Below are positions 3,253 to 25,300 of a DNA stretch of 64,000 bases, piece by piece (positions within the stretch are counted from its first letter, which is position 1; every line of letters starts with the position of its first letter). A program made the position numbers and the translations under genes. Origin of the DNA: Fimicolochytrium jonesii (lineage: Eukaryota); contig NW_026515682.1 of NCBI RefSeq assembly GCF_025526975.1, forward strand, positions 372,001-436,000. Reading direction: 5' to 3'. Below the pieces are notes generated by a model. That model worked only from the letters and a program-made list of their open reading frames with translations, searched no databases and was not told the origin of the DNA.

Positions 3253-3359
3253 TTCCAGGGGTTAGGGTTAGGGTTAGGGTTAGGATAACCCTACACTCTT
3301 TCAAAGTGACCTGCCGTTCCAGGGGTTAGGGTTAGGGTTAGGGTTAGGGTAACCCTACA
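3253..3359 (+). repeat. Two 43-bp direct copies of TTCCAGGGG(TTAGGG)4-TAACCCTACA separated by a 21-bp spacer
   Basis: Copy 1 at 3253-3295 and copy 2 at 3317-3359 differ by one base (TTAGGA vs TTAGGG). Confidence 0.95.
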
Positions 3360-3707
3360 AGCCGTCAATAGATCGGTCAACACTCCCTGCATCAACCCCC
3401 TAGCCTTTCACATCCACTCTCGGCATAAGCAAAAACCCGACATACGTTCTTCAACCGAACGGGGTAAGGAGTCCCGAGTAAGAACTGAATGAAAACATGA
3501 GTGTAGAGTTGGCAGAAAGCAGCTTGTTGTTGTTGGATGTCGCGTTGAGCAGCGACGGACGGGCGATGAGGTCCAGGATGAGGTCACACGTCTCCACTCC
3601 ACTGACTCCAGGCGAAACTTGGCAACGAGAGACAAAAACACTGCACACTCCGTCCTCCCGAGTTCTGCGCATACATACAGACAGTACCCTCAGACACTCT
3701 TCTCAGC

Positions 3708-4670: not shown

Positions 4671-5362
4671 GGAATCCTACATCAATCCCGCTCGACATCC
4701 ACCATCGCCCGATTTTTGTAATCCCATGCGCATCAGCATCCCCGCGCCCATCCCATTGTACATCGCCTCCCTAAGTTTTGAATCTTCGCCAAAACCCCCT
4801 TGCACGATATGTTTCCCTCCCCCGACCGCCATGTTGTTCCACGTTTCCCCCCATATTCCGCCAATGTCCCCCCCCACACATTCCGCCACACATGTACATA
4901 ACAGTTTCGCAGTTTCGACAAATGAATGAGAATTTCGTGTCTATCCAAGTCGTTCGGCGGTATTCGGTCCGATCTCTTTTTTCCTTGTTCTTTTTGTGTG
5001 TGTCATGCACAGAATACAAGTCGTGATAGCCGACATCAAAAAATCTGCAAACGAGTAGACCGCATTCGGGAAACAAAGCGATAAGCCGTGAAGTGTTGGA
5101 TCAGGGCAGTAAAGACTCACTTGCATGGCACCATATCGGTAATACCACCGGTTATTAAGCCCCGCACCAAGCGATTCCAGTGAAAGTCTATATGCATGCC
5201 CGCCCATGGGTGTTTACCTACGTACAATGGCCCCGCACAGCAGAGCAGATACGCAGTACGGCATTCGGATACAGCAAGGTAATGGATGTCCCACTCACTA
5301 GGGATGCAGCAACCGCGTGCGATTTCGAAGTGTCGGCAACCGTTTTTTGGAACGGAGTAGTA

Positions 5363-5394
5363 TAGGGTCCCTAACCTTAACCCTAACCCTAACC
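5363..5394 (-). repeat. Short interstitial telomeric tract (CCCTAA)4, one unit CCTTAA, preceded by an inverted TAGGGT
   Basis: tagggt-ccctaa-ccttaa-ccctaa-ccctaa-cc. Confidence 0.9.
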
Positions 5395-5565
5395 TTTGTA
5401 GGCAAAATTGACGGCGGATTGACAGCATTCGACAAACCAACACGCATGAGGGCGACAACGTTCTCGCTCAAAATGGGATATGGGAGTCGGCAAAATGGAA
5501 GAAGGTTATTGCAATGAATGTGGCGCTGGGTGGGCCGTCTTCCGGCGAGAGCTGATGAGAGGTAT

Positions 5566-6211
5566 GCATAAATAAACATCCCCCCAATGCAGGCACCCCT
5601 CACCTCCAATAGGACACGGAAAGGAAAACGACGGAGGAAGATTACTCCCGCAAGACGAGCTGTGGACATGAAAACCGGATTGACAGCATCGGGGTTGTGG
5701 GATGCATAAACATCCCCAATGGGGGCACTCCTCACCTCCAATAGGACACGGAAAGGGAAACGACGCAGGAAGATTCCACCCGCAAGACGAACTGGAAATG
5801 AAAACCAGATTGACAGCATCGGGGATGTGGGATGCATAAACATCCCCAATGGGGGCACTCCTCACCTCCAATAGGACACGGAGAGGAAAACGACGCAGGA
5901 AGGTTACGCCGGGACGAACTGGACATGAAAACTAGATTGACAGCATCGGGGATGTGGGATGCATAAACATCCTCAATGGGGACTCCTCACCTCCAATAGG
6001 ACACGGAGAGGAAAACGACGCAGGAAGGTTAAGCCGGGACGAACTGGACATGAAAACTAGATTGACAGCATCGGGGATGTGGGATGCATAAACATCCCCA
6101 ATGGGGGCCCTCCGCATCTCCAACCTGACACGGAGAGGAAAACGACGCAGGAAGGTTAAGCCGGGACGAACTGGACATGAAAACCAGATTGACAGCATCA
6201 GGGATGTGGGA
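5566..6211. repeat. Tandem array of 5 units of about 125-132 bp, with a diverged sixth unit near 6300-6420
   Basis: GCATAAACATCC..CTCCAATAGGACACGG..ACGACGCAGGAAG..ATTGACAGCATCGGGGATGTGGGAT recurs; anchor CTCCAA at 5604, 5736, 5866, 5991, 6118 and 6333. Confidence 0.95.
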
Positions 6212-6553
6212 GCAGCTATAGCAGTTGACAACTGTGACGGGCAATGACAGCCTCCCGAGCGGGACAGACTACGTATATGGCTCTATCGTGGAGAGGTTAC
6301 TTATAAACATAGCCATTGCTCACACTTCCCAGCTCCAATAGGACACCGTGGACGAGGAAAAGGAAAGAAACGACACCGGAATATGCAGGGCTACTGAAAT
6401 CGTCACTGGATATGGACGATAGCATAGCATTCGACACCAACAAGATATGCTGGATATGCTGGACCACCATCCAGTCGCCATACCAACGTCTCCATATCCA
6501 CCCACAGGCGATAGGACCCGTCGTCGTCGTCACATATCAACACGCTATGGACC

Positions 6554-6614
6554 TAGCCCATAGCCCATAGCCCATAGCCCATAGCCCATAGCTCACACCC
6601 ATACCCATACCCAT
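6554..6614. repeat. (TAGCCCA)5 and (CCCATA)n microsatellites, telomere-like variants
   Basis: Read directly from the sequence. Confidence 0.9.
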
Positions 6615-6637
6615 CCGCTGCAACAAAAACCTCAACA

Positions 6638-6935
6638 CCTCCTCGCTCGTCAGTCATCCTCGGACTTCGTCGCCATTCCACGCTGACAACCCCTCCTCGC
6701 TCGTCAGTCATCCTCGCCTTCGTCGCCATTCTACCGCATCACCCTGACAACCCCTCGCTCGGCGTCATCCTCGGACTTCCGTCGGCACTCGGACTTCACC
6801 CCTGTCGTCGTCAGCAGGCCCAGGCCATCCCGGGCTCGGATTTCGTCGCCAGTCGGACTTCGTCGGCATTCCACGTGCGCTTACGACCACCTATGCGTCG
6901 TCGGCACCCCTGTCGTCGTCAGCAGGCCCAGGTCG
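6638..6935. repeat. Degenerate short repeats (CCTCGCTCGTCAGTCATCCTCG, CGGACTTCGTCG, CACCCCTGTCGTCGTCAGCAGGCCCAGG x2)
   Basis: Several imperfect direct copies are visible. Confidence 0.8.
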
Positions 6936-7254
6936 GTCATCGTCCTTCTCCCGCCGCGACAAAAACGCGTCACATAATCACCTCGCGTCGCATCCCGCAA
7001 TCCCTTCAGACACCGACAACGCGTTGCCCGCTTAGCATCGTCAGCCAAAGAACACCGGGAACTTCCAGGCCTCCCCTTTCTCATGAATCATCGGCGCATT
7101 TGAAATGCGAGCACGCAATTCCCCTGGATTGCGGGCGCAGTCCTATACTGTGCCACCTTTTGGAAATGAGGTTCTTCCTCGGGATCTCGTTTCCAGAGGG
7201 AGCAGCAGCGAGCAGAGAGAGAGCCGTTGCGGGCGTCCTAGTGAGCCCGAAGTC

Positions 7255-7261
7255 TATAAAA
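7255..7261 (+). promoter_or_regulatory. Candidate TATA box (TATAAAA) upstream of the repeat-rich unit
   Basis: CTATAAAAGG followed by a pyrimidine-rich stretch and TCAGT at about 7301. Confidence 0.45.
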
Positions 7262-7324
7262 GGAGGACCTCGGTTCGCCCTCCCCTCCACTTTTTCCTCA
7301 TCAGTTCCGCACACAACAATCTCC

Positions 7325-7530
7325 TCTACTACTACTACCTCTTCCCTACTACTACCTCTTCTCGACTACTACCTCTTCACTACTACTACCTCTTCTCGAC
7401 TACTACCTCTTCTCGACTACTACCTCTTCGCTACTACTACCTCTTCTCGACTACTACCTCTTCTCGACTACTACCTCTTCGCTACTACTACCTCTTCTCG
7501 ACTACTACCTCTTCTCGACTACTACCTATC
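7325..7530. repeat. CTA-rich minisatellite (CTACTACCTCTTCTCGA / CTACTACCTCTTCG units)
   Basis: Read directly; it produces spurious YYY/TTT-rich ORFs. Confidence 0.95.
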
Positions 7531-7571
7531 GGTCGCTCACGTACTACTACTCTGGCCTACTGCCGACTACA

Positions 7572-8110
7572 ACACAAGATCAACGTCCGCTACCGCTTCG
7601 CCAGCACCCAAGATCAAGATCCGCTATACCGCTTCGCCAGCACCCAAGATCAACGTCCGCTATACCGCTCCGCACCCAAGATCAAGGTCCGCTACCCGCT
7701 TCACCAGCACCCAAGATCAAGGTCCGCTGTACCGCTTCGCCAGCACCCAAGATCAAGGTCCACTACCCGCTTCGCCAGCACACAAGATCAAGGTTCGTCA
7801 TCGTCCGCAATGACCTTAAACTACCACCCTTCATCGACAGTACCGCTTCGCCAGCCACTACCACTACCACCCTTCATCGACGGTACCGCTTCATCAGCAC
7901 ACAAGATCAAGGTCCGTCATCGTCCGCAATGACCTTAACCTACCACCCTTCATCGACGGTACCGCTTCGCCAGCCACTATCACTACCACCCTTCATCGAC
8001 GGTACCGCTTCATCAGCACACAAGATCAAAATCCGTCATCGTCCGCAATGACCTTAAACTACCACCATCGGCGCTCTTCTTCGGTATTATCGGGTCCGAA
8101 ATGACGCTAA
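7572..8110. repeat. Minisatellite TACCGCTTCGCCAGCACCCAAGATCAAGGTCCG grading into an approximately 120-bp higher-order unit (CGTCCGCAATGACCTTAA..CTACCACC at about 7802, 7921 and 8040)
   Basis: Read directly from the sequence. Confidence 0.9.
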
Positions 8111-8618
8111 ACTACGATCATCGGCGCTTCTTCTTCGGTCGGCACTATCGGGTCCGGGAAACTACCATCGGCACTTCTTCTTCGGTCGGCACTCCTTTTC
8201 GGCACTCCTTCGGCACCGTGCTGGGGGAACCACGTGAAACGCCCCGACGTTCCATTCTTTTCTTTTCTTTCCTTTTCTTTTCGTTTCTTCTCGTGCTAAC
8301 TTTCCATTCTTTTCTTTCCTTTCTTTTCGTGCTGGGAGCATGCGTACGTTAAAGGGCCGGTGCTAGGCAACCACAGAAAACGCTTCGTGCTGGTAGGCAT
8401 GCGTACGTTAAAGGGCCGGTGCTGGGCTACCACAGAAAACGCTCCGTGATGGAAGACACACGTTAAATAGCCCGCGTAATGGGCGTTATGAACCTGGAAT
8501 GTGATTGAAATCAACGCAAAGCGACCGTGACACTCGGTGGCTACCTTCGGGTAGACAGGGCAGGGGCTGGTGATGAGAGTGGTGAGGTGAGTTACGTGCT
8601 GTGAAATACAAGAATCAC

Positions 8619-8966
8619 GTATATCGACTGACGATCTGGTTATTAGTTGTCTTTTCTTTACCGTCGGCGCTCTTCTTCGGCACTCTTCTTCGGTCCACTG
8701 GTTAGTTATCTCATCTTAGGAAATCGTGACTGATTCTTGTATATCGACTGACGATCTGGTTATTAGTTGTCTTTTCTTTACCGTCGGCGCTCTTCTTCGG
8801 CACTCTTCTTCGGTCCACTGGCTAGTTATCTCATCTTATAAAATCGTGACTGATTCTTGTATATCGACTGAGGATCTGGTTATTAGTTGTCTTTTCTTTA
8901 CCGTCGGCGCTCTTCTTCGGCACTCTTCTTCGGTCCACTGGTTAGTTATCTCACCTTATGAAATCG
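8619..8966 (+). repeat. Three near-identical tandem units with exact 120-bp period
   Basis: GTATATCGACTGACGATCTGGTTATTAGTTGTCTTTTC... starts at 8619, 8739 and 8859. Confidence 0.97.
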
Positions 8967-8974
8967 CAATCCTC

Positions 8975-9356
8975 TTCGGTCGGGTCCGAAATGACGTTAA
9001 ACTACCATCGGCACTCCTTCGGCACTCCTTCGGCGCTCCTTCGGCACTCCTTCGGCACTTCTTCGGTTCGGTCGGGTCCGAAATGACGTTAAACTACCAT
9101 CGGCACTCCTCGGCACTCCTTCGGTTCGGTCGGGTCCGAAATGACGTTAAACTACCATCGGCACTCCTTCGGTTCGGTCGGGTCCGAAATGACGTTAAAC
9201 TACCATCGGCACGTCCGAAATGACGTTAAACTACGATCGGCACGTGGAAGTGGAAGAAACACGTTAACCAGCCCGTGGACGTGGACGACACGTTAACCAG
9301 CCCGTGGAAGTGGAAAAACACGTTAACCAGCCCGTGATCAGGAAAACCACGTTAAA
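8975..9356. repeat. About 45-bp units (TCGGGTCCGAAATGACGTTAAACTACCATCGGCAC) followed by about 30-bp units (CGTGGAAGTGGAA..ACACGTTAACCAGCC)
   Basis: Read directly from the sequence. Confidence 0.93.
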
Positions 9357-9481
9357 CGACCCGCGTAATGGGCGTTATGAACCTGGAATGTGATGAAATC
9401 AACGCAAAGCGACCGTGACACTCGGTGGCCATGGAAGGATCGCTGGGCGACTCCATGGACAGGGAATGTGGACAGGGCGAC

Positions 9482-9870
9482 TCTTGAGGTATGTATTTGA
9501 TCATCATCGTCGCCGTCGTGATCTTCACTGCTCTTCAACATTCATTGATATCGTCTTCTGCTTCTCTATTAGATGAGAGTGATGACGAGGATCTTGAGGT
9601 ATGTATTTGATCATCATCGTCGCCGTTGCGGATCATCACTCGTCTTCTGCTTCTCCATTAGATGAGAGTGATGACGAGGATCTTGAGGTATGTATTTGAT
9701 CGTCATCGTCGCCGTCGCACTGCTCTTCAACATTCATTGATATCGTCTTCTGCTTCTCTATTAGATGAGAGTGATGACGAGGATCTTGAGGTATGTTTTT
9801 GATCATCATCGTCGCCGTCGCACTGCTCTTCACTGCTCTTCAACATTCATTGATATCGTCTTCTGCTTCT
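9482..9870 (+). repeat. Four tandem units of 89-110 bp (TCTTGAGGTATGT...TTAGATGAGAGTGATGACGAGGA)
   Basis: TCTTGAGGTATGT at 9482, 9592, 9681 and 9784. Confidence 0.95.
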
Positions 9871-10438
9871 CGTCTTCAGGAGCTAGAGGACGCTAGAGGA
9901 CGCCGAAATCGACATCGAGAACTTCATCGAGGAAGCCGGCGAGAACGACATCGACGAGGCCGCGGAGCAAGACGTCAAGGAGCTAAGGTAAATATCATCA
10001 TTGTCTGCTTTGATCACTGTTCGAAATCCGCTAACACTCGTCGTCGTCCATAGAAGCCACCGGACACGCAGGAACTACCATCGGCACGTCAACGACCATC
10101 GGCACGTTAAACGACTGTCGGCACATTGAACGACCATCGGCACTCTTCTTCGGCACTCTTTTTCGTTTCGGCACCACCCTTCTTCGCTCGTGCTGGGCAC
10201 CCACGTTAAAAGGCCCAAGCGAAGCGACCGTTCTTCTCGGTGGCTCCCTCGGGAGACAATCGTGCTGGGAGCATGCGTACGTTAAAGGGCCGGTGCTGGG
10301 CAACCACATTAAACGCTCTGGAATGTGAGAATCAACGCGAAGCGACCGTTATACTCGGTGGCTCCCTCGGGAGACAAGTAATGGGACGGGAATGACTCGT
10401 ATATATCTCTCTTGTACTATATTATAATACTATCTTTC

Positions 10439-10444
10439 AATAAA
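10439..10444 (+). terminator. Candidate polyadenylation signal AATAAA in an AT-rich patch ending the repeat block
   Basis: TATATATCTC...TATTATAATACTATCTTTCAATAAAAA. Confidence 0.35.
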
Positions 10445-10973
10445 AACTACTTTTGAACTATACTACTTGCTCTGCTTCGTGCGCTCTTCGAAAAATGGCT
10501 TGCAAACTATTCTACTTCTCCCTCCTGTTGTGGGTGCAGGTTAGGGTGTGTGCGTCACGCGCTTCAGAGTGGAAAGGACGACGGCTTCGCACGGCTGTAT
10601 GTACCCCCATTTTTCTACAAGTTGCCTTCATCGGCGACGCCTCAGGCAGAGGTACAATGATGTGGAGTACTGTACAGTATATGTATGTGACTGCGTTTGT
10701 CTCGCCGTGGCCAGAGGTGCGGTACCGGATGCTTGGAATGCTTGGTGTCGGGCACTTTCTTATTCATTGTCCTTGGTAGTCGCTGGTCGCGTCGCGGGGG
10801 GGTGGGGGGGGGGGGGGGGCCGGCTTGGAAGTCAAGTGACGCATACTGTACGTATAAATAGCTGCGCGTCGTCGGGCAGAACACCTTTTTCCTCCAGCAT
10901 CTCAGCATTTCAAGACCAAGATTCCGTGGCCCATTCCCAGATTCCGTTGCCCATTCCCAATTACACTAGAAGA

Positions 10974-11151
10974 AGTTATGACCACTGCCGGCACGGCCAG
11001 GCGTGATTGTTAACTATCTTCTGGTGCGTCTGGTGAATGGTGAATGGTGAATGGTTAATGGTGAAGCTACCTCGGCTCTCGCTCAGACTCTCGCTCCACA
11101 TCCGATGAACAGTTATGACCACTGCCGGCACGGCCAGGCGTGATTGTTAAC
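10974..11151. repeat. 41-bp direct repeat AGTTATGACCACTGCCGGCACGGCCAGGCGTGATTGTTAAC (10974-11014 and 11111-11151)
   Basis: Two identical copies flank a (GGTGAAT)n microsatellite. Confidence 0.95.
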
Positions 11152-11799
11152 CCTACTTCTGTGTTGGAGGTGCTGTGTTCTGCACTCCGGCCCGTCGGCC
11201 ACGGTCGCTTCTGCGTCCGCCACCGCTACGACCACTGATACGGTTACTTCGACTGAGCCCAGGTCCGCGGTGACTGAGCCTACCAAAAACAAGGTCATTC
11301 GGGTCAGATCGGTTGCCTCTGCTACCTCGGTCGAACTTCCTCCGGTTACCTCTGTGCCTGAACAGGCGGTCACCTCTATTTCTATTCCACTGCCTCTTTT
11401 TCCCACGTCGGTTCCGCCGCCTCCCCCGGTTTTCCCCTGCCCTATCCGCCGCTCTTCCCGAACCCGTACGTCGCCGGCATCCCCACGCTTGGCGCTTCCG
11501 TCGCGCCCTTCTCCCTGCAGCACCCAGGGAACCACCCGACCGCCCCGGCGTGCAGACCTACGGGCAAACTCACTGGATATCGGCGCCGAGGAGCCCCTGT
11601 ATCAAGCGATAGTTTCCTTTGGTATGCTTTCTGATAAATGTTACGGTCGCCTGCATTTTGTTTTTGCTAACGCACGCACGCAACTTGGAACCTCCCGTAC
11701 ATTCACCAGAATAACGTCCATCGCCTACATAACAACCCATGGAGACCGAAGGTAGGTTCTCGAGCAGGGAGGGAGCAGCGGGGAGATGAGGAAATGGGG

Positions 11800-12020
11800 T
11801 ACCCTGCCCAGATGGTTTCGCGCATATGGCGTATCCAGCCACTGTCAGCAGCCCCCGGGTTGGCGCATATGACGTATCCACTCAGGGGAGAAAGGAGAAG
11901 AGAGAGAGAGAGGGAGAGAGTGAGCGAGAGCGCGAGAGAGAGCGGACTATACCCTACCAGATGGTTTCGCGCATATGGCGTATGCACCTGGGGGATGAGG
12001 GAGAGGGAGAGAGAGAGCAG
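11800..12020. repeat. Duplicated TACCCT..CCAGATGGTTTCGCGCATATGGCGTAT block with GA microsatellites
   Basis: Copies at about 11800 and 11950, each followed by (GA)n-rich runs. Confidence 0.85.
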
Positions 12021-12148
12021 AGGCGCGCCCTTTTGGATTCCGCTGTCTGTCGTCGCACAAATGGTGGTAGAAGGCAAATCTCATTGGCGTCGTGGGCTAA
12101 CCCTGTCGGTGAATATCCTTGGGACATGTTCCACCCAATACTCCCGAG

Positions 12149-12302
12149 ACCCGAGTTAGGGTTGGGGTTAGGGTTAGGTTAGGGTTAGGGTTAGGGTTAG
12201 GGTTAGGGTTAGGGTTTACCCGAGTTAGGGTTGGGGTTAGGTTCGACAGAGTCGCGGTCAAATTGAGGCGCCATTAGGGTTAGGGTAACATTAGGGTTAG
12301 GG
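12149..12302 (+). repeat. Interstitial telomeric cluster: about 10 TTAGGG units (12156-12214) plus shorter tracts
   Basis: ACCCGAGTTAGGGTTGGGGTTAGG occurs twice (about 12149 and 12218); CATTAGGGTTAGGGTA occurs twice (12272-12304). Confidence 0.97.
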
Positions 12303-13449
12303 TACTCTTACGCTCAAGCTCGGCCTTACAGCCTTCACGCTCGGCCTTACAGCTTCACGCTCTCAGCGCCGTGGTTTGCCATTTGGTACGGCTGGGTAGG
12401 CACTACTACCCCAGCATTCATTTCCCACAAATACTCATCATCCAAAAAACGAATCATGGCTCGAGTCCTGCAACATAGGGCACTCAACTCTCCTTCTTCC
12501 CCTTATGCAGATACCGATAGACGTACAGTACATGTGCAGTATTCGTGTTCGAACCGGAGATGAGATATGGTGGGTGATCAGAGGAGGCTTTGCGACAAAG
12601 CGACAAACCGGAGATGGAACGGAAACAGGATGGTTGGACGGAAAGGGGAGGAGAGGAGTGATGGTGGAGGAGAGGAGAGGTAGCTGGCAGGTCGTGCCGG
12701 GACTCCAGGACTCCCGCACTTGCAGAACATTCCCACTTGCACATCCTCACGCACATCCTCACGCTGGTCTCTTGTTTTACAGCCTAAGCGACGAAACGAA
12801 TCTGAAGGGGAGGGGAAACGGACAAAGCGGGCGACAGCGGTACACGGATTCAGTCGTTTTAATACACTTCTGAAGCAAGATGCAGTCGGAATCATCTCAC
12901 GCTTCAATCTCAACGTCGAATCCGCGGAGGAATATGCCACAACAATTGCGCACCCGACACAAACCGTATCCGGTGGATAAACGCCCGACGAAAACATCTA
13001 TATGACCAGCTCGGAGCGGGAGAGAAGGGGCCGATCGAAGGGATTCCGTTGTCCCCAACTCCAACTCCAACACCAGCCCATGCCCTCGACGCATTACTGA
13101 GCGCCTGATCTATGTATTATAGACGACATTTTTGCTCCGGTTCTCCCAAATGACCCTCTCGCTATGCGGCCCGGGGCGCGGATCCACCAGTTTGTTGACA
13201 AGGCTGCATGGGCACAGAACCGGGAAGGAGATCACCAGCCCACGCCAACACCTGGCCCAACCCACACTACCACACCCAGCGCCATCTCAAACCCCGGCAT
13301 CGGCGGAGTTGACAACGGCGGCGGTGGAGTTGAAATCATGGCAGACAGCCGCGGCGGCGTTGAAATCATGGCAGACAGCGGCGGCGGTGGTGGAGTTCAA
13401 ATCGTGGCAGGCAGGGACGGCGGCGGTGGAGTTGAAATCGTGGCAGGCA

Positions 13450-14060
13450 GCGATTTCCAAAGTGTCAAAATGGCACGGAGATTCAATGTACCTATTCCGT
13501 TTGTTCCGGTAAGAAAAGTTACTTAAGTTACTAAAGTTACCGTACTTAACTAAACCAACTTTCCTTTTTTTTTTGTTTTATGTTCAGCGGTCTATCGATG
13601 TTGCAGAGTACAACGTACTGCTATTCCCAACAAACCCAGATAATCTGCACTGGGTCCTGTTTGCAATACTCGTCGCCCAAGTCCGCAAAACCCCTGGGCC
13701 CCCCTGGTTCGTCATTAACCAGACACGAAAACGTATCCCTCGTTTTATTTGACTCAAAGCCTCGCCCGAACGACCACGACTACGTTGATAAGATGGCCAA
13801 TATAGGCTCCCTCTTGTGGGATTGGTGCATTACGGCCACTGAAGTCCCGCTCAATCACACACCGACGCCGACACCGACGGTTGACGCCCTCTTCACGCCT
13901 CGACAGCGCGACGACCATAACTGTGGGACATTTGTGTGCATGATGGCTGATGCCATTGCACGTGGTGCCGTGGGTGAGGTTACCGAATCATGGGTCAATA
14001 CGCAGACCGCCGTCAATGCCCGCCATACCATCATCGCGCTGAGCATCGTGTTGGCCATGT
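13450..14060 (+). pseudogene. Frameshifted Ulp1/SENP-type (C48) cysteine protease remnant, probably transposon-borne
   Basis: After an intron (GTAAGA 13509..TTCAG 13587), frame 1 reads IDVAEYNVLLFPTNPDNLHWVLFAILV (His at 13648). Frame 2 continues VLFDSKP...TPRQRDDHNCGTFVCMMADAI (Cys at 13922). The H-D-C triad and oxyanion Q are split by a frameshift. Confidence 0.8.
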
Positions 14061-14259
14061 TTCTTCACGATGGTGATGCTCATCAGTATACGGATGTGAC
14101 GAAGTGCTAGAGATGGAAGATGCAGATGCCGGGATGGAAGGTGCAGAGATGTCGGCGTAGGAGGAGGTGCAGAAGGGGGTGCAGAAGGGTGTTGTGCCGA
14201 AAGATGCGAGCTCCTAGTTGTGATAGGGGTAGAGTATAGTATATTATACGTATAGTACG

Positions 14260-14552
14260 CGCCTTCAGCTGAGTCGTGCTTCAAGTGGTGCTTCAATGGT
14301 CACTCAATCATGGATAGACGACTTCTTGAACACGGCGCCCTCCAAGGACGGCTGCTTTCAGGGAGTACTCTTCCTTCTGGGCCTGTCGCAACTGCTCGGG
14401 TGCATATTCAAGTGGGAGAAATGCTCACTCACTCCATCCCAACACGTACAGCACATCGGCTGGAATTCATCGTGAGGGGCATTTCTATACGTTTTTCGAT
14501 GGACGGCCACTCTATATACGGTCAGACCATCGTCGGCTACTTCCGATCTCGT
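14260..14552 (+). mobile_element. DIRS/Ngaro-like (tyrosine-recombinase retrotransposon) reverse transcriptase and RNase H remnant
   Basis: 14296-14475 translates MVTQSWIDDFLNTAPSKDGCFQGVLFLLGLSQLLGCIFKWEKCSLTPSQHVQHIGW (xxDD motif plus K..L.PSQ...IG typical of DIRS RT). It is followed by HFYTFFDGRPLYIRSD / QTIVGYFR in adjacent frames (RNase H SDN.T.V.Y-like). The ORF is too short to appear in the ORF track. Confidence 0.72.
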
Positions 14553-14784
14553 GCACAATACAGATGACGATATGATGACCTGAGGGACGATTCTGACATG
14601 GGATGTCTTGTTGACGGAGTTGGATACATTCATCCCACGCGGGGCGAGGACGCTGTATAGTAGGAATGGTGTGGGTTTGATGGGGGCGTGGGTAGATATT
14701 GTATAGCAAGGCCGGGGGGATAGGCGGAAACATCAATTGAACCATGAGATGGAAAAAGGAGAACGTCGGTGAACGACCAGCTGG

Positions 14785-15015
14785 GAAACTCCCCTCGTAA
14801 AGCCCTGAGTAAAGCCCAGTTCGCAGCGCAAGAACGCGACCTCTTCGCTCTGGACCTCCTTCTCGCCAACCGCCATTGCGACATCGACCTGCTCACATTT
14901 CCACACCACACACTTACAACACCTCCGGCAGCTACAGCAGCCTTCCCTAGTGGCTGGACTTCGGCTCCCCACTCTTCTTTTCGCTTTTGAGTTACTGTGG
15001 ACCTGGGAATCACCA
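14785..15015 (+). mobile_element. Heavily eroded Ty3/gypsy-like RNase H remnant
   Basis: RKALSKAQFAAQERDLFAL...LLANRHCDI, then WLDF and PGN in shifted frames, echo the LS.AQ.NY...ERELLA / RW..FL / PG..N motifs. Confidence 0.45.
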
Positions 15016-16139
15016 TGCAAAGGTGTACAATGGTCATGGCGGTCCCGTGCGCATTCCAACACTCCATCTTCGGCATGAGCTCACTCGTTGGGGAGGCAGA
15101 TGGTGCCCCACTGCGAGTCGCCCTCGGTGCTCCTACACGCCTTGCAAGGCACGACGTTTCTGGATGCTGCAGAGGTTCCCCTTGCTTGTCTCGGAACCCC
15201 ACCTACCAGTTCGTCGCTACCTGCACGTCGTCCGAAGCCGTCGGCTTTAGCTGCGCGTCGTCGGCAATGCGCAGAAGTGTTCTCCCACTGTCCCATTCGG
15301 CTCACTGCAACAAGGATCTACGGGTAAGCTTTATCACTTGAACTGGGTAACAGGGTGCCATCGCCTCATTGTTTCCTACCTCATTGTTCCTACTACGTAG
15401 CCACAAACAAGCGGAAACGAGACAACAAAGAGAACACGGCAGTCGATGGAGGTTGGTGTGTCCATTCCATTGAATTATCCGGCTGTAGGGCCGTAGGCTG
15501 GTGTGGTGTGGTGTGGTAAATATCGTACAGTGGGTCAATGGCTCACCCAACGCATCAACCAGAGACAACACCATTCCGCCGGAGTACGCTGGAGAAACGA
15601 TGGCTCAACAACCTCCAACTGAAAGCACTCTGCAAAACCGAGCAAAACCGCACCTGTCACGCCTCCGTCGCTCTGCATTCAGCGTTCCGCTCTCGACTTC
15701 ACGATCGCTTGAGGCTGATTGTTTTGGGCCGTCCTCGCGATCGTTTGCCATCCACCACAACCGCGATCGCTTGAGGCTGTTTGTTTGGGCCGTCCTCGCG
15801 ATCGTGTGCATCTCATTGAATTTATGCGGCGATCTTTTCCGGCACATCCTTTATCTAATCCGCTCCCTCGGCCGATCCCTCTGCATCGTCGAAACCTGCA
15901 CGTCGTCAGAAGAATTATGACCACGCGTGATTGTCATCTCTTCTGGTAAAGGGAGAATGGAACTCGACTCTTGCTCAGAAACATACTCCGCACCGAGCAA
16001 AACCGCACCTGTCACGCTAAGAGCTGGAACCATGGACCCGCATCATCCGAACCATGCTTCCCATTGGCCACGCTTCCCATTGGCCACCGCTGCCCCAGTC
16101 TCGAGCGTCGTTGCCCACGCTTCCCATTGGCCCAGCGCA

Positions 16140-16600
16140 TGTAACCCTAACTGTAAGTCATTTTGCGTGGAAGGCTGTTATATCGCGTGGAAGGCTATTG
16201 ACTCGCACATTTACAGGGTAACCCTAACCCTCAGTTACGGTACGGGTATTAGGGGAAGGCTGTAACCCTAACTGGAAGTTATTTCGCGCGGGAGGCTGTT
16301 ATATCGCGTGGAAGGCTATTGACTCGCATATTTACAGGGTAACCCTAACCCTCAGTTACGGTACGGGTATTAGGGGAAGGCTGTAACCCTAACTGGAAGT
16401 TATTTCGCGCGGGAGGCTGTTATATCGCGTGGAAGGCTATTGACTAGCACATTTACAGGGTAACCCTAACCCTCAGTTATGGTACGGGTATTAGGGGAAG
16501 GCTGTACCCCTAACCGCTGTGTTGTACACAACAAACCCTAACCCTCAGTTACGGTACGGGTATTCCGCGAAGGCTGTAACCCTAACTCGAAGTTATTTTG
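16140..16600. repeat. Tandem array of 121-bp units (3 full plus partial copies) containing telomere-like TAACCCTAAC and AGGGTAACCCTAACCCT
   Basis: TGTAACCCTAACT at 16140, 16261 and 16382, variant at 16503, partial copy at 16575. Confidence 0.97.
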
Positions 16601-17054
16601 CGCGGAAGGCTGCGCACGGAAGGCTATTTATTATAGTCGATGCAGGGCCGTTATTCGAGCGCGCCCAACCCAACCCAACCCTGCACTGATCTTGGCTGTG
16701 CTGGAGCGAGAAACTGACCTGCCGAGGCGGCAACGCCGTTGAGCTCCAGTAGGATGTATACGATAAAATCTCCGAGAGTTTGAAAGAGCGCCGGTTCAAG
16801 TTCCGGATGTCAGGCTCATATTGGGATGCAAGGAAGGCCACCGTTCTTGTCGGCAAGGCCATGCAGATCTGCGGCATGCTCACCGATGTCGACGAAGGCT
16901 ACGGGTGAAAGCTACTGTATGAAGCTCAAAAAAATCCATCTATCTACAAGAAAACGCACACTGAGGGGTATCAAAATCTCTTCCCATCCACCACCTACAT
17001 AGAACCCAAAATATCAAAAGCAGCCCTCCAACCGCCCCCAACCCCCCTCCCCAT

Positions 17055-20000
17055 CTACCCAAACAGCGTCTTCAACTCCTCAATCCTCCCCCTCTTCTCC
17101 TCCTCCTTCCTCTTCGCCGCCGCCCCCACCGTCCCACCACTCCCTGCACTCGCACCACCAACTTCACCCTCCCCAATAGCCCACTTAGTCAGCACCGTCT
17201 TGCGCTCTTGGATCGTAAGCATCTTCTCCTCGACGGTGTCACGCATGACGAACCGTTTGACAGTGACGGGGCGGGTTTGGCCGATGCGGTGGACGCGGTC
17301 GATAGTTTGGGATTCTACGGGGGCCTATGGTGCGTTGCAAAGCGATTGCGAAACGGGAAACCTGTGTGTTAGATAGCAGCTAACGGAGAGAGATACTTGC
17401 TGTCCAATGGAGGAGATGCGAGGGGGGTTGAAACAATACTTACATTCCACCACGGCTCCATGATAACCACAAAACTCGCCCTCACAAGGTTCAACCCCAC
17501 CCCCGCGCTCCTCATGCTCGCCAACAACACCCTACATTCCCCCGCATCCCCTTCATCACTCGCAAACCTCCGCAACGTCGCCTCCCGTTCCCTCTGACTC
17601 ATCGTCCCATCCAGTCTACAAAACCCAAACCCATGTTCCTGTAACACAATCTCGCAGAGGTTGAGCATGGATGTGAACTGTGAGAAGACGACTGTTTTTA
17701 CGTCGGGTTGCGTGGTGCGGAGGTGGGTGAGGTGGTGGATTAGGGTGAGAAGTTTTGTGGAGGCGTGGAAGTGGCGGCGGAGGGTTATTGTGTGGGTTGG
17801 TAGAGGTGGTGGTGGGGATGTGATGATGGTGTCCGAGTCGGTTTTGCCGTTTTCCTTGTTATCATCTACCAAAGTCGTCGACGATTGCTTCCCATCCGTT
17901 TGAGTGTCCCCCGCGCTGACAGCAGTTGCAGCGGGCGCACTCGGCGCCCTAACAATATCCAACAAGTCCTCTTCCCTGAACTCCTTCCTGCAAATCGGAC
18001 ACTCGCCCTTCTCGCCCATCTGCTCGCGTTTCTGGAGGTATCCGACGATGCACTCGAAGCAGCTCATGTGCAGGCAGGGGAAGAGGGTTGGCTGGACCAT
18101 CAGGTCGAAGCAGATCGGGCACGAGGAGTCGTCGTCTTCTTGGGAGGGGCTGGTGCCGTTAAGGGGGGATTTGCCGGCTTGTGCAAGGCGTTGGAAGACG
18201 GTGTCGACGTAGGTATCGCGGTCGGATGTACCGGTGGTGCTGCTGTTCCCATCCAACCCATTTTGGAACCGTTTGATCAACGCATCGATGTCCATATCCG
18301 ACCCATCTGCACTACTCGTCGACGCCGACGCAGCAGCGTTCCCTTTCCCCAACGCCAACTCCGGATGCAAGCAACACTGCCTCAGCCTCGTCAGCATCTG
18401 AAACACATGCGCCCAATGGCTGAGAACGCTGCCTGCCGCGCAGAACGCCGAGAACTGCGTTTTAGATTTCGTAAACAGTGCCGTGTAGATATCGCGCTCC
18501 TCTTTTGTGAAATCGAGGTATTCGGTCTCTACCGTTTTGGGCGGGAGTTCCACGATCGGTCGGCCTTCGGGTCCCACTCGCGTTGTTTTCTGGCGACGGA
18601 GGACGAGCGGTTCCAAAACCGATTGGACTACGTTCAAAGCTTTTGGGTCCTTATTGGCAAAGGGTACGGTGATGAACTGTCGCCAGAAGGAGTAGTTCCC
18701 CCACGGCTCGATGCGGAGAAAATGCACCAGGGAGAATAAGTCCTCGAGCCGGTTCTGGATGGGCGTGCCGGTAACGCACCACCGACGTCGCGCGTCGATC
18801 TTGTGGCAGGATTTGGCGGTGGCGGTTTGCTGGTTTTTGATCCAGTGCGCTTCGTCCAGCACGACTCGGAACCATTGCACGCCGAATATCAGCGAGGCGC
18901 GCTTGTTGGTTTTCACTGTTGCTTGCCATTCGCTCGCGACGACTCCGTAGGTTGTGATGACGACATCGGGTGCGTCTTTAGATGTCAGATCCGAGATTTT
19001 CAATGACCGTTCTGTACCGTAGAAAACGGCGTGAGATAATGTCCCCGGCCTGAAGCGTTCCGTGACCTCATCGCGCCACTGGGACAGAAGGGACAGCGGG
19101 CACACGACCAGCGTTGCCCGGCTTGACGGAAGTACAGAGTCCGTCGAGTTCCCCTTGGCAGCATACCGCGCAAACGGTTGGAACTGGTTCGTCCAACTCG
19201 ACTGCCCCATCTCTTCCTGCGTCGGTCGATTTGTGTGTATGAGAGCAAGGGTCTCGAGCGTTTTGCCGAGTCCCATCTCGTCGGCAAGGATTCCTGCCCG
19301 AGTGCGGTCGGCGGCGCTTGGGAAGCGTGTTTGCATCTCGCCGGTGTATGGGTTTAAGTAGATCTTCTGTGGATGAGCCTCGCACTGGTTTCCCGGACTT
19401 GGAAGGGCGTACTCTTCCCACAGGGGATGTATTGAATGCGAGTCCGAATCTACTTGAAGGTTTTCTTTCGCCGCCATCCAGGATAGGGCCTGTACCATTG
19501 ATTGAGAGAGCAATAATGTCAGTCTTGCACCAGGGATGTCATCACGTTCAGACAAACATCAAACATACCTGCTTTTGATACCCCCTCAAGTCAATAACCA
19601 ACCCCTCCTTCGGCTCCATCTCCTGCACATCCTCAAAACCTCTCGCCTTCTCATACAAAACCTCCACCTGATCCTCCTCCAGCTCCTTCTCATCCTCCAC
19701 CGCGTCCTCACCCGGCACCGCGCCACCACTCGACGCAGCATCCACCGCAGCATCCTCCTTCAACCCAGCCTCAGCGGGGTCAAACGGCCGCAACCCAAGC
19801 ATCTTGAATAACGTCAACAGCGCAATCTTGCGATCCTTGATCGTCTGGTCCTGGGTATCCTCATCGTCGGCCGACGCCACGGTCATAAACGCCTTCTTAG
19901 TGAAGAAGATGCGGAGCTGCAGGATAATATCGCACAGCAGTGTGAGTGAGGGTGGGGCTGAGACGACCGTGCCGCGGATGACGATGACGTCCATCTCGAC

Positions 20001-20513
20001 CAGCTTGCCGAGCACCTTCGCGTCGTCTTTGGACATCTTGGCGACCTCTTTGCCGCCGGCCCGGATGCGCGTGATGGGCCCTCTGGGTGTTTTGGACGCG
20101 CGTGGGTATCTTTTGGACGTCGGTTGGGCCGAGTAGACGGTCTTATGGTCGATCGTCTCGATTTCGTCTCCGTCTCGTAGCTGGTTGGGCCCCCGGATGG
20201 TCGCAAGGGCTACCAGTATCACGTCGCCTGCATACTTCAACTCCCCGTCCGGATGCGGCGACCCGGCCCCACCGGCTGCTTTCACCCGCTTCACATCCCT
20301 CGTCCCCATCGCCGCATCCTCCTCCGCCTTCCGCTTCACCCCGGCGTCGGCCGCCTGTATCGCAAGTCGTTGGTATTTGCCTGGGTTCTCGAAATATAAA
20401 TGACATGCTCGTGATAGGTCGCCTTTGGACTCGGCGAGCAGGACGCCGAGTGACATGGAGGGGACTTCGTCGCCGAGGATGCCGCGGAGGGAGGCGAAAT
20501 CTGGTTGTGTCAT
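17055..20513 (-). CDS. RAD5: DNA repair protein Rad5 (HIRAN-like region, SNF2 helicase, RING finger)
   Basis: [76 protein letters not shown]; last exon [30 protein letters not shown]; introns near 19500-19568 and 17325-17440. Confidence 0.95.
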
Positions 20514-21559
20514 TGTTTGCGGTTGGTTGCTAAGTTGCAGTATCGTTTCAAGCAATGGCCGTGGGAACTTGGTGGACTGGAGGCGACGAGGGTGGAGTGG
20601 AGAAGTCTCAAAGCTCCAGCCAGACCTGTGGGTATTCCCCGGGAGCGCAGCTTTCCTATCTAGTACTATCTAGGAGGTGCTATTCCAGCACTTTGCCCTG
20701 CGATAACCTCTACCATTTGCAAATGGGGATAGTTTGAGGTCTACGCTAAGCACAGCATGAATTTGCAACAAGTCCGAAAGCGCCTCGTTTGACAAATTGC
20801 GTCCGGAAAGGGAAGCCAGACAGAGGCGACTGCCAAACGCGTCACTCCAATCCTACGAGTTGGGAAGGAAGCGACAACCACATAGCCCGGCAACATGAGA
20901 GTAAGCTTCTGACGGTCGAGCTTCTGCGCACGTTGAGCGTGAGGAGCGGGGAACGAGGCAGGCAAGGCATTGGGCTTTCGTCCACAGAGCACATGCCCTC
21001 AAGTTGTTAAGCAAGAAGACAATTTTCCAAAGTAGTTGTAATAGACACAGATATTATGTAGATATCTACATATTAGACAAAGCATTTGATACGTACAATA
21101 CATGCAATTGATACCGCACTAAGATTGCCACGCCGATATTGAACGGCATCCTACTCCGCCATCCTACTCTGCCTTCGTGCCTTCATCGCATCCTCCAGCT
21201 TCATCGCATCAATAAACTTCCTCTCCTTATCCTCAGATTTCATCTCCTCGAATTTACCGCCCATTACCGGGGATCTTTACTGGGGAATACACTACATATG
21301 CCGGAAACTACACATCGGCTTGACATTGGTTGGACGGGATGGGGCGAGGGGAGGGGGTTGTGCATGCCATAGCACAGTGTGTGGAGGCTGAGGGTGACAC
21401 CCGACAAGCCGGCGGCGGCGCAATCAGATCCTCCCCACTGTCGTTGTAGGCGGCGGCGGTCCAGTCGGCGGTGGAACCTAAAGCAGCAAAAGAGAGCACA
21501 ATCAACAAATGATGTATTTTAGAACTACAATAAAACCCGAAGAATGCTCGCCCGGGTTT

Positions 21560-21665
21560 CCTCGAGTTCCAGTCTCATATCCTCTAAACTTGTATGCTTT
21601 GTATGAAAGATCTGCTTTCCACCGGTCCAGTTGTCTGCAGCGTGTGTGAATCCGCACAGAAAGGT
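21560..21665 (-). mobile_element. Ty1/copia integrase C-terminal (SH3-like) remnant
   Basis: YLSVRIH...WKADLSYKAYKFRGYETGTRG resembles the copia Y.HIP...K.LD.KA.K..FIGY..G.KG pattern. Confidence 0.5.
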
Positions 21666-21714
21666 ACCGCTGGTTGTTGCTCTTACTTGTTACAAGGCTG
21701 GCCACGGCGGCGTC

Positions 21715-21867
21715 TGTCATGGGATTAGGGTTAGGGATTAGGGTTATCAACCCTAATCCCCAACCTCACAACCCTAACCCAGTGATAACCCTAATCCCCA
21801 ACCCTAACCCCAACCTCACAACCCTAACCCGGTGATAACCCTAATCCCCAACCCTAATCCCATGACA
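21715..21867. repeat. 153-bp telomeric palindrome: 35-bp inverted repeats built from TTAGGG variants around CCCTAA-variant direct repeats
   Basis: Left arm TGTCATGGGATTAGGGTTAGGGATTAGGGTTATCA (21715-21749) and right arm TGATAACCCTAATCCCCAACCCTAATCCCATGACA (21833-21867) differ by one mismatch. Confidence 0.95.
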
Positions 21868-21964
21868 AAGTCCGCCTGTGAAGGCACCTCTCCACATTGC
21901 GCTCTGGACGAGGAACGTAGTCCTCAAGAGTCTATGGACGAGGAGGAGGTTGCGAGGAGGTTGC

Positions 21965-22085
21965 TTAGTATTGCGGAACGTTTCAATCGAACTGTCATGG
22001 ATCAAGTTCGTGCAATAATGTGCATGAGTAACATTCCTGAGAATCTCTGGAATGAAATAGCTGTCTTGGTATGTGCATCAATGAA
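21965..22085 (+). mobile_element. Ty1/copia integrase core remnant
   Basis: SIAERFNRTVMDQVRAIMCMSNIPENLWNEIA matches the copia G.AER.NRT....R.ML..S.LP..LW.EA motif. Confidence 0.85.
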
Positions 22086-22322
22086 TGCACGGAAAGCTCT
22101 CCCATAGGAAGAGTTAGATATATATGTCTATAAAGGTGATGCAGGATATGGAGGCGTATGTAAGAGCGACGTAGTTTATGGGGGGTGGAGGAATCTGCCA
22201 AAAACGAAGGCCAGGGGGGTGGGGTCTATGGAGATTGATTAGGGGGGGTTGGCGCTATGAACTAGCGAGACTATGGGGGTCACCGCCCCCGAGATTGCGT
22301 GGGGTAGCATCGGTCGGTACCT

Positions 22323-25300
22323 TCACTTCCGCACAGGACTAACAACTCTCGCCGGCGCACTATCCGCCCGTCCCAAAACCCTCTCCACCTTCTCCCGCTC
22401 CAGACTCCCCATCCTCACCGTGTTCCCCCTCTGCATACCCCCAGGGAACCTCACATCCACATCCTCTCCCTCCTCCGCCTTGGGTGACCCGACGGGGTGT
22501 CTCGTTGTGATTAGACCTGTGCCGTGGGGGATGGGTACTGCACTTGGATGTGTGGGGGAGGTGGTATGGGCGTTTGCGGTCCCGTTATGTTGATGGAAGT
22601 GTTCATCGTCCTCATCATCTGTAAACTCGTCCTCGTCAAGGTCCTCGTCGTCATACATATCCTCGTCCTCATACGCCTCTTCGTCGTCCGTGAACTCGTC
22701 CTCGTCTTCATCGTATTCTTCATCTGACGCCGGTTTCGCCAAATTCTTTCCCTGCTTCTTCCCATTCTTGTTATTGTTGATGTTGGGGGGTTTGCCACCC
22801 TTCTTGCCACCCCCCCTCCTCCCCCTCCCCGCCGCATCGACGTCCGCGTCATCAACATCCGGCAACTCAATCTTGGGTAAATCCGACTTCCAGAAATTCC
22901 AATCGTTGAAATCCGAGACGGTCACTTTCTCCTGTCCGATCGGCGGGAAGATCTGGTCGACCAGATCATTCAGCTTGATATACGAGCTCTTATAATTCGC
23001 AAGCAGCTCCAATTTGATCTCGCCCGTCGAATCGATCGTGAATATTCGACTACTGGGTACATCAACCGAGCGATAACTCAGCGCATCAGTGATCCGGTTC
23101 CCAAAGCCCGCGTAAAAGGGTGTCCGATCGACAAAGAGGCGTTTGATATCGCGCAGACAGGCCATTTTGAATTCCTCGGGTTTGCGGAGGATGACTTCGC
23201 GGTGGAAGGAGGCGAAGAGACGGTCGGGGGACATGATGACGGGGCCTTCGGGGAGCTGGTGGCCGTTCTGTTCGATTTTGGAGAGATATTCGCGGGTTGC
23301 GCCGGCCTATACAATGTTTCAAGAAAAAGTTAGGTATCGCACAGTCTCCCTCGAACCACGCACCAGCATGTTTCAACTAACCTGCCCAATAGCCCGACTA
23401 GTCAAATACAAAATATGATACCCATTCTTCCTTATATTGGTATACAAGCTCGCAATCCCCGAATGCGTCCAATCCTTCCCCACCATCGTAAAAATATGCC
23501 CGAGTGCATCGGATTTGGTGATGGTGCCGTCGATGTCGGAGATGACGATGTTGCAGTTGTGGTCGTAGAGGAAGAGCTTGGCGGAGACGGAGGCTGCCGA
23601 CTGCGAGACGGTGAAGGTGATGGTGTTTGGGCCGGGTTGGAGGTTTAGTTGTTTCTGTGGGGATAATCGAAATCAGCACATATTCATAGTGTCTCGGGGG
23701 TGGAGGTAAGGGATTTGACAAGAACATACCAACTGCTCCGAAGTCAACCGCAAAGATTTCGCAAAATGCATCGGGAACGACCGCTGCTCCTCCAGCTGCT
23801 CCTTCAATTTATCGGTCGGCGCCGCCGGCGTCTGGTTCGGCTCCTTCATCGGGCCTTCGTCTTCTGCGCTGATCTGGGCCGTGGGGGATGGTGGCGTCGG
23901 ACTGTTGCCGTTGAGGTCTTTGGGTTCCGGGGAGGATTTGCTTTTGTCTTTCTCGTCCTGTGGTGAGAATATCGTGTTACTAAACTGATCGTCTCGGAGG
24001 AAACGGACAAGGGTCTGTTTACTCTATCACCCACCGAGCCATTGTTATCCTTACTGCCCCTAGTCCACCACGTCTTAAACTGATTAAAGCTATACCGCCT
24101 ATTATCCGGCGAAAGCCCCGGCCTCGAATGCGCGCGGACGAGCTTCCTAACCAGATCCTCGGGCAACGGTTTCTTGAACGCCAAATTCGACATGATCATC
24201 GGTCCCGCGACCGCCCAGTTGAAGTAATGCCCGTTAATCCGCAGCGTGAGTGATGTGTCGGCGAACAATTCGGGGGTTTTGGCAAACGCCTCGTACCCGA
24301 CCACGTTCTTGTTGAACAGCTCGTCGGCGTCCCGCGGGCGAAGGGAAATGACGCGGTCGTAGGGTACCATAGAGATCTCCAGCTCGACGTCGTGGTTGAA
24401 GGCGACGCTGAGGCCTTCGCCGGGGGTGTAGGTGTCGCCGCCGTTGGGCTGGTCAAGGTTGTCTTTGGAGGGGGAGTCGGGGTTGGGGGTTGAGATGGGG
24501 GAGTGGGTGCGGGGGTTATTTTCGTCGGGGAGGCCAGCGAGGTAGTTGTTGACTTTTTCGTCGACGGACATGTTCGTGAGGCGGGGTTGCGAGTCTGCGT
24601 CGAGGGGTTCGCCGCCGTCGCCTTTGAGCAGCTTTTTCTCCCCTTCGTTCTGAGCACCGCTCCATCTCCAGCCCCACCCTTTCCCACCCTTCTTCCCGTT
24701 CTTGGCATTCACGGAAGCGTTGTAGTCGGCATACTCCACCTCCGTATCACTCAGAGGGCCCGTGTTTGCCCGTTTCAGGATATAGGAGGAGTTGAGCGCG
24801 CTCTCGTCGACCGAGTCGAGGGGTGCGCTGGCGTCTTCGCCGCCGCCGCCGCGCATGCCCACAGAGCTGGAGCGAGTATGGCTGCCGCGCCGGCGTTCTT
24901 GGTATTCGGAGGTGACGGGGTAGGAGATCGAGTGGAAGAGTTTGGGCTTTTCGGAGCCGGTTGGACTGAATTCTTGGTCGGAGGGGGTTGCTGGGGTGAT
25001 TAGCGTCTTTTCGGTGGGGCTGTCGATTGGTTCTGCAAATACAAAAAATCAGTTTCGATATGTATGGAACATGGACTCAGCCACGGCTCTTTAACGTACC
25101 AGGCTGTAGTGACGAAACCGACAGATCCTCCGCCTCCCTCACAGCCGGTTTCACCTGTCCATCGTCCACCACTGCGCCCTTCCCAGGCCTCACATCATCC
25201 TCCGTCTTCCTCGGCTCGGGCATCCCGGGCAATGACGTCTCCACAATCCCCTGCGCGCTCGGATTCTTATCCGTATCCGCCTGCTTCATCCCGACCAGAT

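What the first reader, a model, noticed from the sequence alone, without database searches (positions are those of the whole stretch)
21560..22085. Telomeric palindrome sitting between two copia fragments that point away from it
Seen: a 153-bp element has 35-bp inverted arms made of TTAGGG variants, with weaker symmetry extending to GGCGG/CCGCC. A copia integrase core fragment lies to its right on +, and a copia SH3-like fragment lies to its left on -. In an intact copia these two parts are adjacent and co-oriented. Inference: a broken, inverted retroelement was rejoined through telomeric sequence (a fusion-like scar), or a telomere-derived MITE inserted here. I found no obvious target-site duplication.
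Basis: partly seen in the sequence, partly recalled or inferred. Interest (0 to 1): 0.7.

Follow-up and report, generated by a model that had tools for sequence, protein, structure and literature searches.

The report
Telomere-like repeat patch with mirrored end
In a chytrid fungus, a short patch of telomere-like repeats carries a 35-base mirror copy of its own end, likely made by a local DNA-copying slip, beside one small leftover piece of a retrotransposon; the claimed second piece did not hold up, so this looks ordinary.

Summary
The palindrome is real: 21715-21749 pairs with 21833-21867 at 34 of 35 positions. It is lopsided: the right side is a 50-nt degenerate telomere-like unit in 2.3 copies, and the left arm mirrors its last 35 nt. 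The right fragment is a real copia integrase relic (21970-22071, 68% identical to a chromodomain-carrying copia of Powellomyces hirtus). The left 'SH3' fragment is not established: no Pfam, homologue or Atlas hit, and scores near the range of random window segments (best case 2 of 59). So 'two halves of one broken copia' loses its basis. Both arms carry the same non-telomeric variants, so they were copied from one template, not added separately by telomerase. No independent target-site duplication exists. Best reading (0.45): a short degenerate interstitial telomeric array that gained an inverted templated copy by template switching (2-nt inner microhomology, 6/9 outer match). Close rival (0.35): a non-autonomous transposon with telomere-like arms. 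No genome or reads were available, so copy number, empty site and assembly accuracy are untested. The host is a Powellomycetaceae chytrid; four other telomere-like tracts lie in the window. Interest is low.

The parts
21715..21749 (+). Left arm, G-rich on +; reverse complement of 21833-21867 with one mismatch
21748..21867 (-). Degenerate telomere-like array, G-rich on -; 50-nt unit in 2.3 copies, including the right arm 21833-21867
21748..21749 (.). Inner head-to-head junction; these 2 nt belong to both the left arm and the array (microhomology)
   Evidence: sequence; unit register
21706..21714 (+). Left outer 9 nt, complementary to 21868-21876 at 6 of 9
   Evidence: about 1% of random pairs
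21868..21876 (+). Right outer 9 nt, partner of 21706-21714
21877..21969 (+). Spacer with short local duplications; holds an in-frame SPQE motif (21919-21930) that may be the upstream integrase motif split off by an insertion; not supported by profile score
21970..22071 (+). Relic of a Ty1/copia integrase core end (34 codons, no stop); closest to a chromodomain-carrying copia of Powellomyces hirtus (P0126, 68%)
21556..21669 (-).
19569..20513 (-). First exon of the flanking Rad5-type helicase gene (context)
   Evidence: 100% identical over 315 aa to P0001, named Fimicolochytrium jonesii by its source
22323..23306 (-). Last exon frame of the flanking lipin gene (context)
   Evidence: LNS2 E 3.4e-51

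Best explanation
This is a short, degenerate telomere-like array between two ordinary genes, whose last 35 bases were likely copied once in mirror orientation to its left edge by a template switch during replication or repair; the copia integrase scrap beside it is probably a bystander. SHOWN: the array (50-nt unit, 2.3 copies); the 35-nt inverted copy, 83 nt from its template; a 2-nt overlap at the inner junction; a 6-of-9 match just outside the arms; G-quadruplex-type motifs on the array's G-rich strand. INFERRED: a rightward-moving strand stalled at the array's left edge. It paired through the imperfect GGCGG match with the opposite strand just beyond the array, copied 35 nt backwards, and returned at the 2-nt microhomology. 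No function is proposed beyond that of any short interstitial telomeric sequence.
For: Asymmetry: the left arm equals only the outer 35 nt of a 120-nt array. Both arms share the same variants, so one template. The layout fits the published signature of microhomology-mediated templated insertions: an inverted copy of a template within 100 bp, flanked by microhomology or microhomeology of 2-12 bp (PMC8421209, passages). The outer 6/9 match, about 1% by chance, is what such a switch needs. No independent target-site duplication. The other four telomere-like tracts also show small head-to-head turns. Weak and post hoc: two opposite-strand patch pairs in the left flank (2% of 300 Markov simulations reach two), and more short local duplications in these flanks than in five of six other non-coding stretches.
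Against: The copy ends almost exactly at the array's outer edge and gives TG...CA termini, which a transposon explains more simply. The one arm mismatch has the more telomere-like base on the left, so a later change must be assumed. The origin of the array itself is not explained. The shared turn motif in other tracts could equally mark a repeat family. Patch pairs also occur in background (19 listed in 47 kb, including these). No empty allele or reads were seen.
Confidence: 0.45

Rival explanations
1. A non-autonomous DNA transposon (MITE-like, or an internal-deletion derivative of a foldback-type element) whose inverted ends are built from inward-facing telomere-like repeats; one arm later expanded or the middle was deleted at the 2-nt microhomology.
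For: 153 bp, non-coding, intergenic, 34/35 inverted arms, TG...CA ends. Both ends coincide with the edge of telomere-like sequence. Other telomere-like tracts in the window share a TAGGGT-A-ACCCTA-type turn (6 matches against 0.23 expected). They lie in or near a gene-poor repeat region with a weak Ulp1/C48 hit (E 0.0055, below cut-off).
Against: No independent target-site duplication: the 5-mers flanking the 153-bp unit match at 3 of 5. The CATG/AT repeat is forced by the symmetry. The AAGGC pair (21694-21698 / 21881-21885) is offset, and 70% of 500 random boxes hold such a match. No second copy in 64 kb or in the collections scanned, which hold few fungal genomes. The arm's non-telomeric end occurs at no other tract.
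Confidence: 0.35
2. One reading: one copia element was broken, inverted and rejoined through telomeric repeats added at both broken ends, or two chromosome ends fused here.
For: The orientation is that of fusion-type interstitial telomeric sequence (PMC6410037, passages). Head-to-head tracts at repaired breaks are known (3 of 41 loci in PMC8537989, passages). One real copia fragment is adjacent. A 9-mer at the arm end recurs inside the integrase fragment (2% of random 9-mers recur within 400 nt).
Against: The second copia fragment is not established. The arms share non-telomeric variants, which separate telomerase additions would not give. Symmetry stops after 44 nt, and intact-looking host genes lie about 0.5 and 1.2 kb away.
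Confidence: 0.07
3. The variant unit is a reverse-transcribed copy of the telomerase RNA template with its flanks (TERC-ITS-like), later duplicated.
For: The unit holds TAACCCTAA, recalled as the template of filamentous-fungal telomerase RNA (no call), with fixed flanks repeated in each copy. Insertion of template-adjacent telomerase RNA is described in vertebrates (PMC8537989, passages).
Against: No chytrid telomerase RNA sequence was available; Rfam gave only four sub-threshold hairpin matches. Ordinary decay and duplication explain the variants.
Confidence: 0.04
4. Assembly or amplification artefact (a fold-back chimera).
For: Inverted copies are a recalled artefact type; no reads could be laid.
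Against: The copy is only 35-44 nt and differs from its template at 1 of 35 and 3 of 9 positions. The tandem copies differ from each other, and the flanking genes read normally.
Confidence: 0.05

Closest known systems
Microhomology-mediated templated insertions (MMB-TI; PMC8421209, passages read)
   Same: Short inverted copy of a template within 100 bp, with microhomology at the inner junction and an imperfect match at the outer one.
   Different: Here the template is a telomere-like array, and no reference allele without the insertion was available, so the event is inferred from layout alone.
Short and fusion-type interstitial telomeric sequences (PMC6410037, PMC8537989, passages read)
   Same: Internal TTAGGG-derived repeats, here head-to-head. 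TTAGGG is the telomere repeat reported for two Batrachochytrium species (PMC11797018, PMC9926174, passages); not checked for this host.
   Different: Strongly degenerate with a 50-nt higher-order unit; both sides share one variant pattern; no subtelomeric flanks.
MITEs and other non-autonomous inverted-repeat transposons (general features recalled)
   Same: Short, non-coding, terminal inverted repeats, intergenic.
   Different: No independent target-site duplication; interior made only of arm-type repeats; copy number unknown.
Telomere-bearing elements (TBE) of Oxytricha (PMC4724952, passages read)
   Same: Telomeric repeats inside terminal inverted repeats.
   Different: TBE ends start with the C-rich strand, have an ANT duplication and encode three proteins. 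Here the G-rich strand starts each end, there is no ANT duplication and no transposase.
Chromodomain-carrying Ty1/copia of Powellomyces hirtus (P0126) and P0139-P0146
   Same: The 34-codon integrase relic matches P0126 at 68% and four of the five next-best pairwise hits are of this group.
   Different: Only this stretch survives; no SH3, chromodomain or RT match nearby.

Membership tests
Templated inverted insertion (MMB-TI type) | Inverted copy of a template within about 100 bp | tested here: met
   Arms 83 nt apart, 34 of 35 match
Templated inverted insertion (MMB-TI type) | Microhomology at both junctions | tested here: inconclusive
   Inner junction 2 nt; outer 6 of 9, with 3 mismatches in the 4 positions next to the arm
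Templated inverted insertion (MMB-TI type) | Reference allele lacking only the inserted copy | not testable with these tools
   No genome; no runs listed
MITE / non-autonomous TIR transposon | Terminal inverted repeats on a short non-coding unit | tested here: met
   153 bp, 35-nt arms
MITE / non-autonomous TIR transposon | Target-site duplication | tested here: not met
   No independent direct repeat at a symmetric boundary; CATG/AT is forced by symmetry; offset AAGGC at chance level
MITE / non-autonomous TIR transposon | Many dispersed copies | not testable with these tools
   None in 64 kb; genome not held
Fusion-type interstitial telomeric sequence | Head-to-head TTAGGG then CCCTAA orientation | tested here: met
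   3 G-strand then 7 C-strand hexamers
Fusion-type interstitial telomeric sequence | Two independently made telomeric tracts with subtelomeric flanks | tested here: not met
   Arms share one variant pattern; Rad5 and lipin genes flank within about 1.2 and 0.5 kb
Fusion-type interstitial telomeric sequence | Synteny break against relatives | not testable with these tools
   No fungal genomes searchable here
Telomere-bearing elements (TBE) | C-rich telomeric repeat at the outer 5' end, ANT duplication, transposase ORFs | tested here: not met
   Opposite polarity, no ANT at the boundaries examined, no such ORF (definition)
Solo LTR | TG...CA ends | tested here: met
   21715 and 21867
Solo LTR | 5-bp target-site duplication (as for copia families in PMC6875170, passage) | tested here: not met
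   Flanking 5-mers match at 3 of 5
Ty1/copia relic, right fragment | Similarity to the copia integrase core end | tested here: met
Ty1/copia relic, left fragment | Similarity to copia SH3 (PF25597), to the family's chromodomain, or to upstream integrase | tested here: inconclusive
   No significant score; weakest null fraction 2 of 59, post hoc
TERC-ITS | Flanking sequence matches the host's telomerase RNA | not testable with these tools
   No chytrid telomerase RNA at hand; Rfam only sub-threshold hairpins

The most novel reading that the evidence does not exclude
The unit is one copy of an undescribed chytrid family of non-autonomous transposons whose ends are inward-facing telomere-like arrays (the reverse polarity of ciliate TBEs). 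The family would also account for the other telomere-like tracts with hairpin turns in this window, and it would seed interstitial telomeric sequence between genes.
Probability: 0.2. Interest if true: 0.45.

Novelty: new member of a known kind. Interest (0 to 1): 0.2.

Why it matters
On the best reading it matters little: one more short interstitial telomere-like array with a local inverted duplication. It removes the basis for the striking 'retroelement broken and rejoined through telomeres' story. If genome-wide copies turn up, it would define a fungal transposon family that spreads telomere-like repeats; that would matter for telomere calling and repeat annotation in chytrid genomes. Paper searches listed no such fungal family (1 and 2 papers, listings only), which is weak evidence of absence.

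Tried and rejected
Whole genome: not held.

Copies elsewhere: the metagenome scan gave 2 loci, both the same unrelated sequence with only the 21-mer in common. Viral contigs gave 0 for two patterns and no integrase relative. Prokaryote genomes gave 0 and then 12 bacterial short-repeat loci, none sharing the flanks.

Left fragment as SH3, chromodomain or upstream integrase: not significant. The family-SH3 scan failed through an indexing slip and was redone.

Extending the integrase upstream across the spacer, or across the element removed in silico, gave no gain in score. An SPQE motif in frame (12 of 7110 windows hold such a motif) is noted but unproven.

ATGs at both arm ends open 81- and 72-codon frames; neither exact protein is in the collection, and their coding score was no better than background in a rough, overfitted model. 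Rfam: 4 hairpin matches, all far below gathering score. PDB: one integrase at E 0.07. An inverted relation between the 12.2-kb and 16.2-kb tracts beyond plain hexamers was not found. Earlier scan notes: nothing for this genome or for the full stretch; one unrelated bacterial note for the short unit.

Papers: only passages were read (PMC11797018, PMC9926174, PMC6410037, PMC4724952, PMC8421209, PMC7736798, PMC8537989, PMC6875170). No supplements were opened; repeat libraries in supplements of chytrid genome papers could bear on the transposon reading.

Full report
Setting. The window comes from a chytrid fungus. The first exon of the gene left of the finding is 100% identical over 315 residues to a Rad5-type protein that its source names Fimicolochytrium jonesii (family Powellomycetaceae). 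The finding lies in a 1.8-kb gap between that gene's start (20513) and the end of a lipin gene (22323; LNS2 E 3.4e-51). No genome was held and no sequencing run was listed, so all structural conclusions rest on this one sequence.

The palindrome. It is real. Arms 21706-21749 and 21833-21876 are 91% complementary and head the list of 209 inverted pairs in the window. The strand folds at -41.6 kcal/mol, better than all 200 shuffles. The inner 35 nt match at 34 of 35. Beyond them three of four positions mismatch and then five match; 6 of 9 is reached by about 1% of random pairs. The unit is lopsided. The right part, 21748-21862, is a 50-nt degenerate telomere-like unit in 2.3 copies, and the left arm is the reverse complement of its outermost 35 nt. 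The two bases at 21748-21749 belong to both. Both arms carry the same departures from plain TTAGGG, so they descend from one template. G-quadruplex-type motifs are present on the G-rich strands (predicted only). TTAGGG is the telomere repeat reported for two Batrachochytrium species (passages); I could not check it for this host.

Target-site duplication. None is independent of the symmetry. The 5-mers beside the 153-bp unit match at 3 of 5. A CATG (or AT) repeat at 21718-21721 and 21861-21864 follows from a self-complementary word inside inverted arms. An AAGGC pair is offset by a few bases, and 70% of 500 random boxes of the same size hold a 5-bp match.

The right fragment. 21970-22071 encodes 34 residues of a Ty1/copia integrase core end. 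Of 18 phmmer hits, 15 carry copia-type domains and 3 are repetitive proteins. The highest identity is P0126 from Powellomyces hirtus, 68% over 34 residues. It belongs to a group of nine proteins with a chromodomain between SH3 and RT. A profile of that group scores the fragment at E 3.9e-13 and nothing else in the window below 2.7. The match does not extend upstream, with or without the palindrome removed in silico. An in-frame SPQE motif at 21919-21930 may be the upstream motif split off by an insertion (12 of 7110 windows hold such a motif), but the profile score does not support it.

The left fragment. I could not establish it as copia. Pfam, a homologue search and the Atlas found nothing (the last two are weak negatives). 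With frameshift-tolerant alignment it scored 13.6 bits against the family's own SH3 (14% of 59 random segments as high), 12.6 against the chromodomain (7%) and 14.0 against a general copia SH3 profile (2 of 59). It is post hoc, one of six tests on this flank, and not among the top 12 in the window. Against 125 copia proteins its best pairwise hit was to RT and was matched by 17% of 572 random tile-strands; its SH3 alignment scored below the null mean. A piece of the same element should resemble the family about as well as the integrase relic does, and it does not.

Context. Four other telomere-like tracts lie at about 3258-3360, 5360-5395, 12155-12300 and 16140-16590. Each shows a small head-to-head turn, with 6 matches to one turn motif against 0.23 expected. 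None shares the arm's non-telomeric end. So head-to-head telomere-like sequence is not unique to this site.

Mechanism. The layout fits the described signature of microhomology-mediated templated insertions: an inverted copy of a template within 100 bp with short, often imperfect, matches at the junctions (PMC8421209, passages). Interstitial telomeric sequence is reported to disrupt break-induced replication in yeast (PMC7736798, listing and passages). I infer that a strand arriving from the left stalled at the array, paired through the outer imperfect match with the opposite strand just past the array, copied 35 nt backwards and returned at the 2-nt overlap (0.45). Weak post-hoc hints of local patchwork are two opposite-strand patch pairs in the left flank (2% of 300 simulations; such pairs also occur in background) and a 9-mer shared between the arm end and the integrase relic (2% by chance). 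Against it: the copy ends at the array's edge with TG...CA termini, and the array's origin is unexplained. A non-autonomous transposon with telomere-like arms explains those points but lacks a target-site duplication and any second copy (0.35). Telomerase-RNA read-through, as in TERC-ITS (PMC8537989, passages), and an assembly artefact are not excluded but have no positive evidence (0.04, 0.05).

Comparison and novelty. It works like a templated inverted insertion in a short interstitial telomeric array; membership cannot be closed without an empty allele. It is not a TBE (opposite polarity, no ANT duplication, no ORFs) and fails the duplication test for MITEs and solo LTRs. Earlier scan notes on rotifer head-to-head scars pointed me to the TERC-ITS paper; I did not check their claims, and their two-end capping model does not fit the shared variants here. 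Searches listed no fungal transposon family with such arms (listings only). Verdict: real, partly misread, a new member of a known kind, interest 0.2.

Noticed in passing
P0126, P0139-P0146 (relatives of window 21970-22071): A group of Ty1/copia polyproteins with a chromodomain (PF00385) between the SH3 domain and RT; P0126, from the chytrid Powellomyces hirtus, also has a Ty3-type capsid hit (E 3.8e-5). One search (copia, chromodomain, Spizellomyces) listed no paper and one search listed four, none on this by title. Chromodomain copia in oomycetes is recalled, not checked. Possibly a better lead than the palindrome.
   Followed up: partly
window 3253-3360, 5360-5395, 12155-12300, 16140-16590: Four further telomere-like tracts, each with a small head-to-head turn. 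The 3.3-kb and 5.4-kb tracts face each other as an inverted pair around a longin/VAMP7-like gene (gene name recalled from the sequence, no call); the 16-kb tract sits in a 121-nt tandem.
   Followed up: partly
window 5400-16700: Gene-poor stretch dense in tandem repeats, with a weak Ulp1/C48 protease hit at 13550-14107 (E 0.0055, below cut-off); it may be a decayed DNA transposon region.
   Followed up: partly
window 21154-21527 (-): Possible small gene or pseudogene: two frames with GC3 0.68 and the best relative coding scores in the gap, and an intron-like 21479-21527; no Pfam or Atlas hit for the frames tried.
   Followed up: partly
window 17061-17440 (-): The database Rad5 model P0001 appears to run into an intron and stop early; orthologues P0002 and P0003 continue at 17324-17061.
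   Followed up: no
window 21862-22104 (+) and 21505-21720 (-): Each arm ends in an outward-facing ATG that opens an 81- or 72-codon frame; the right one is in frame with the integrase relic. Neither protein is in the collection.
   Followed up: yes
L003, L006, L009, L010, L013, L014: Rumen-type bacterial genomes carry short G-rich heptamer repeats, in five of these six followed by a C-rich tract; unrelated to this element.
   Followed up: no
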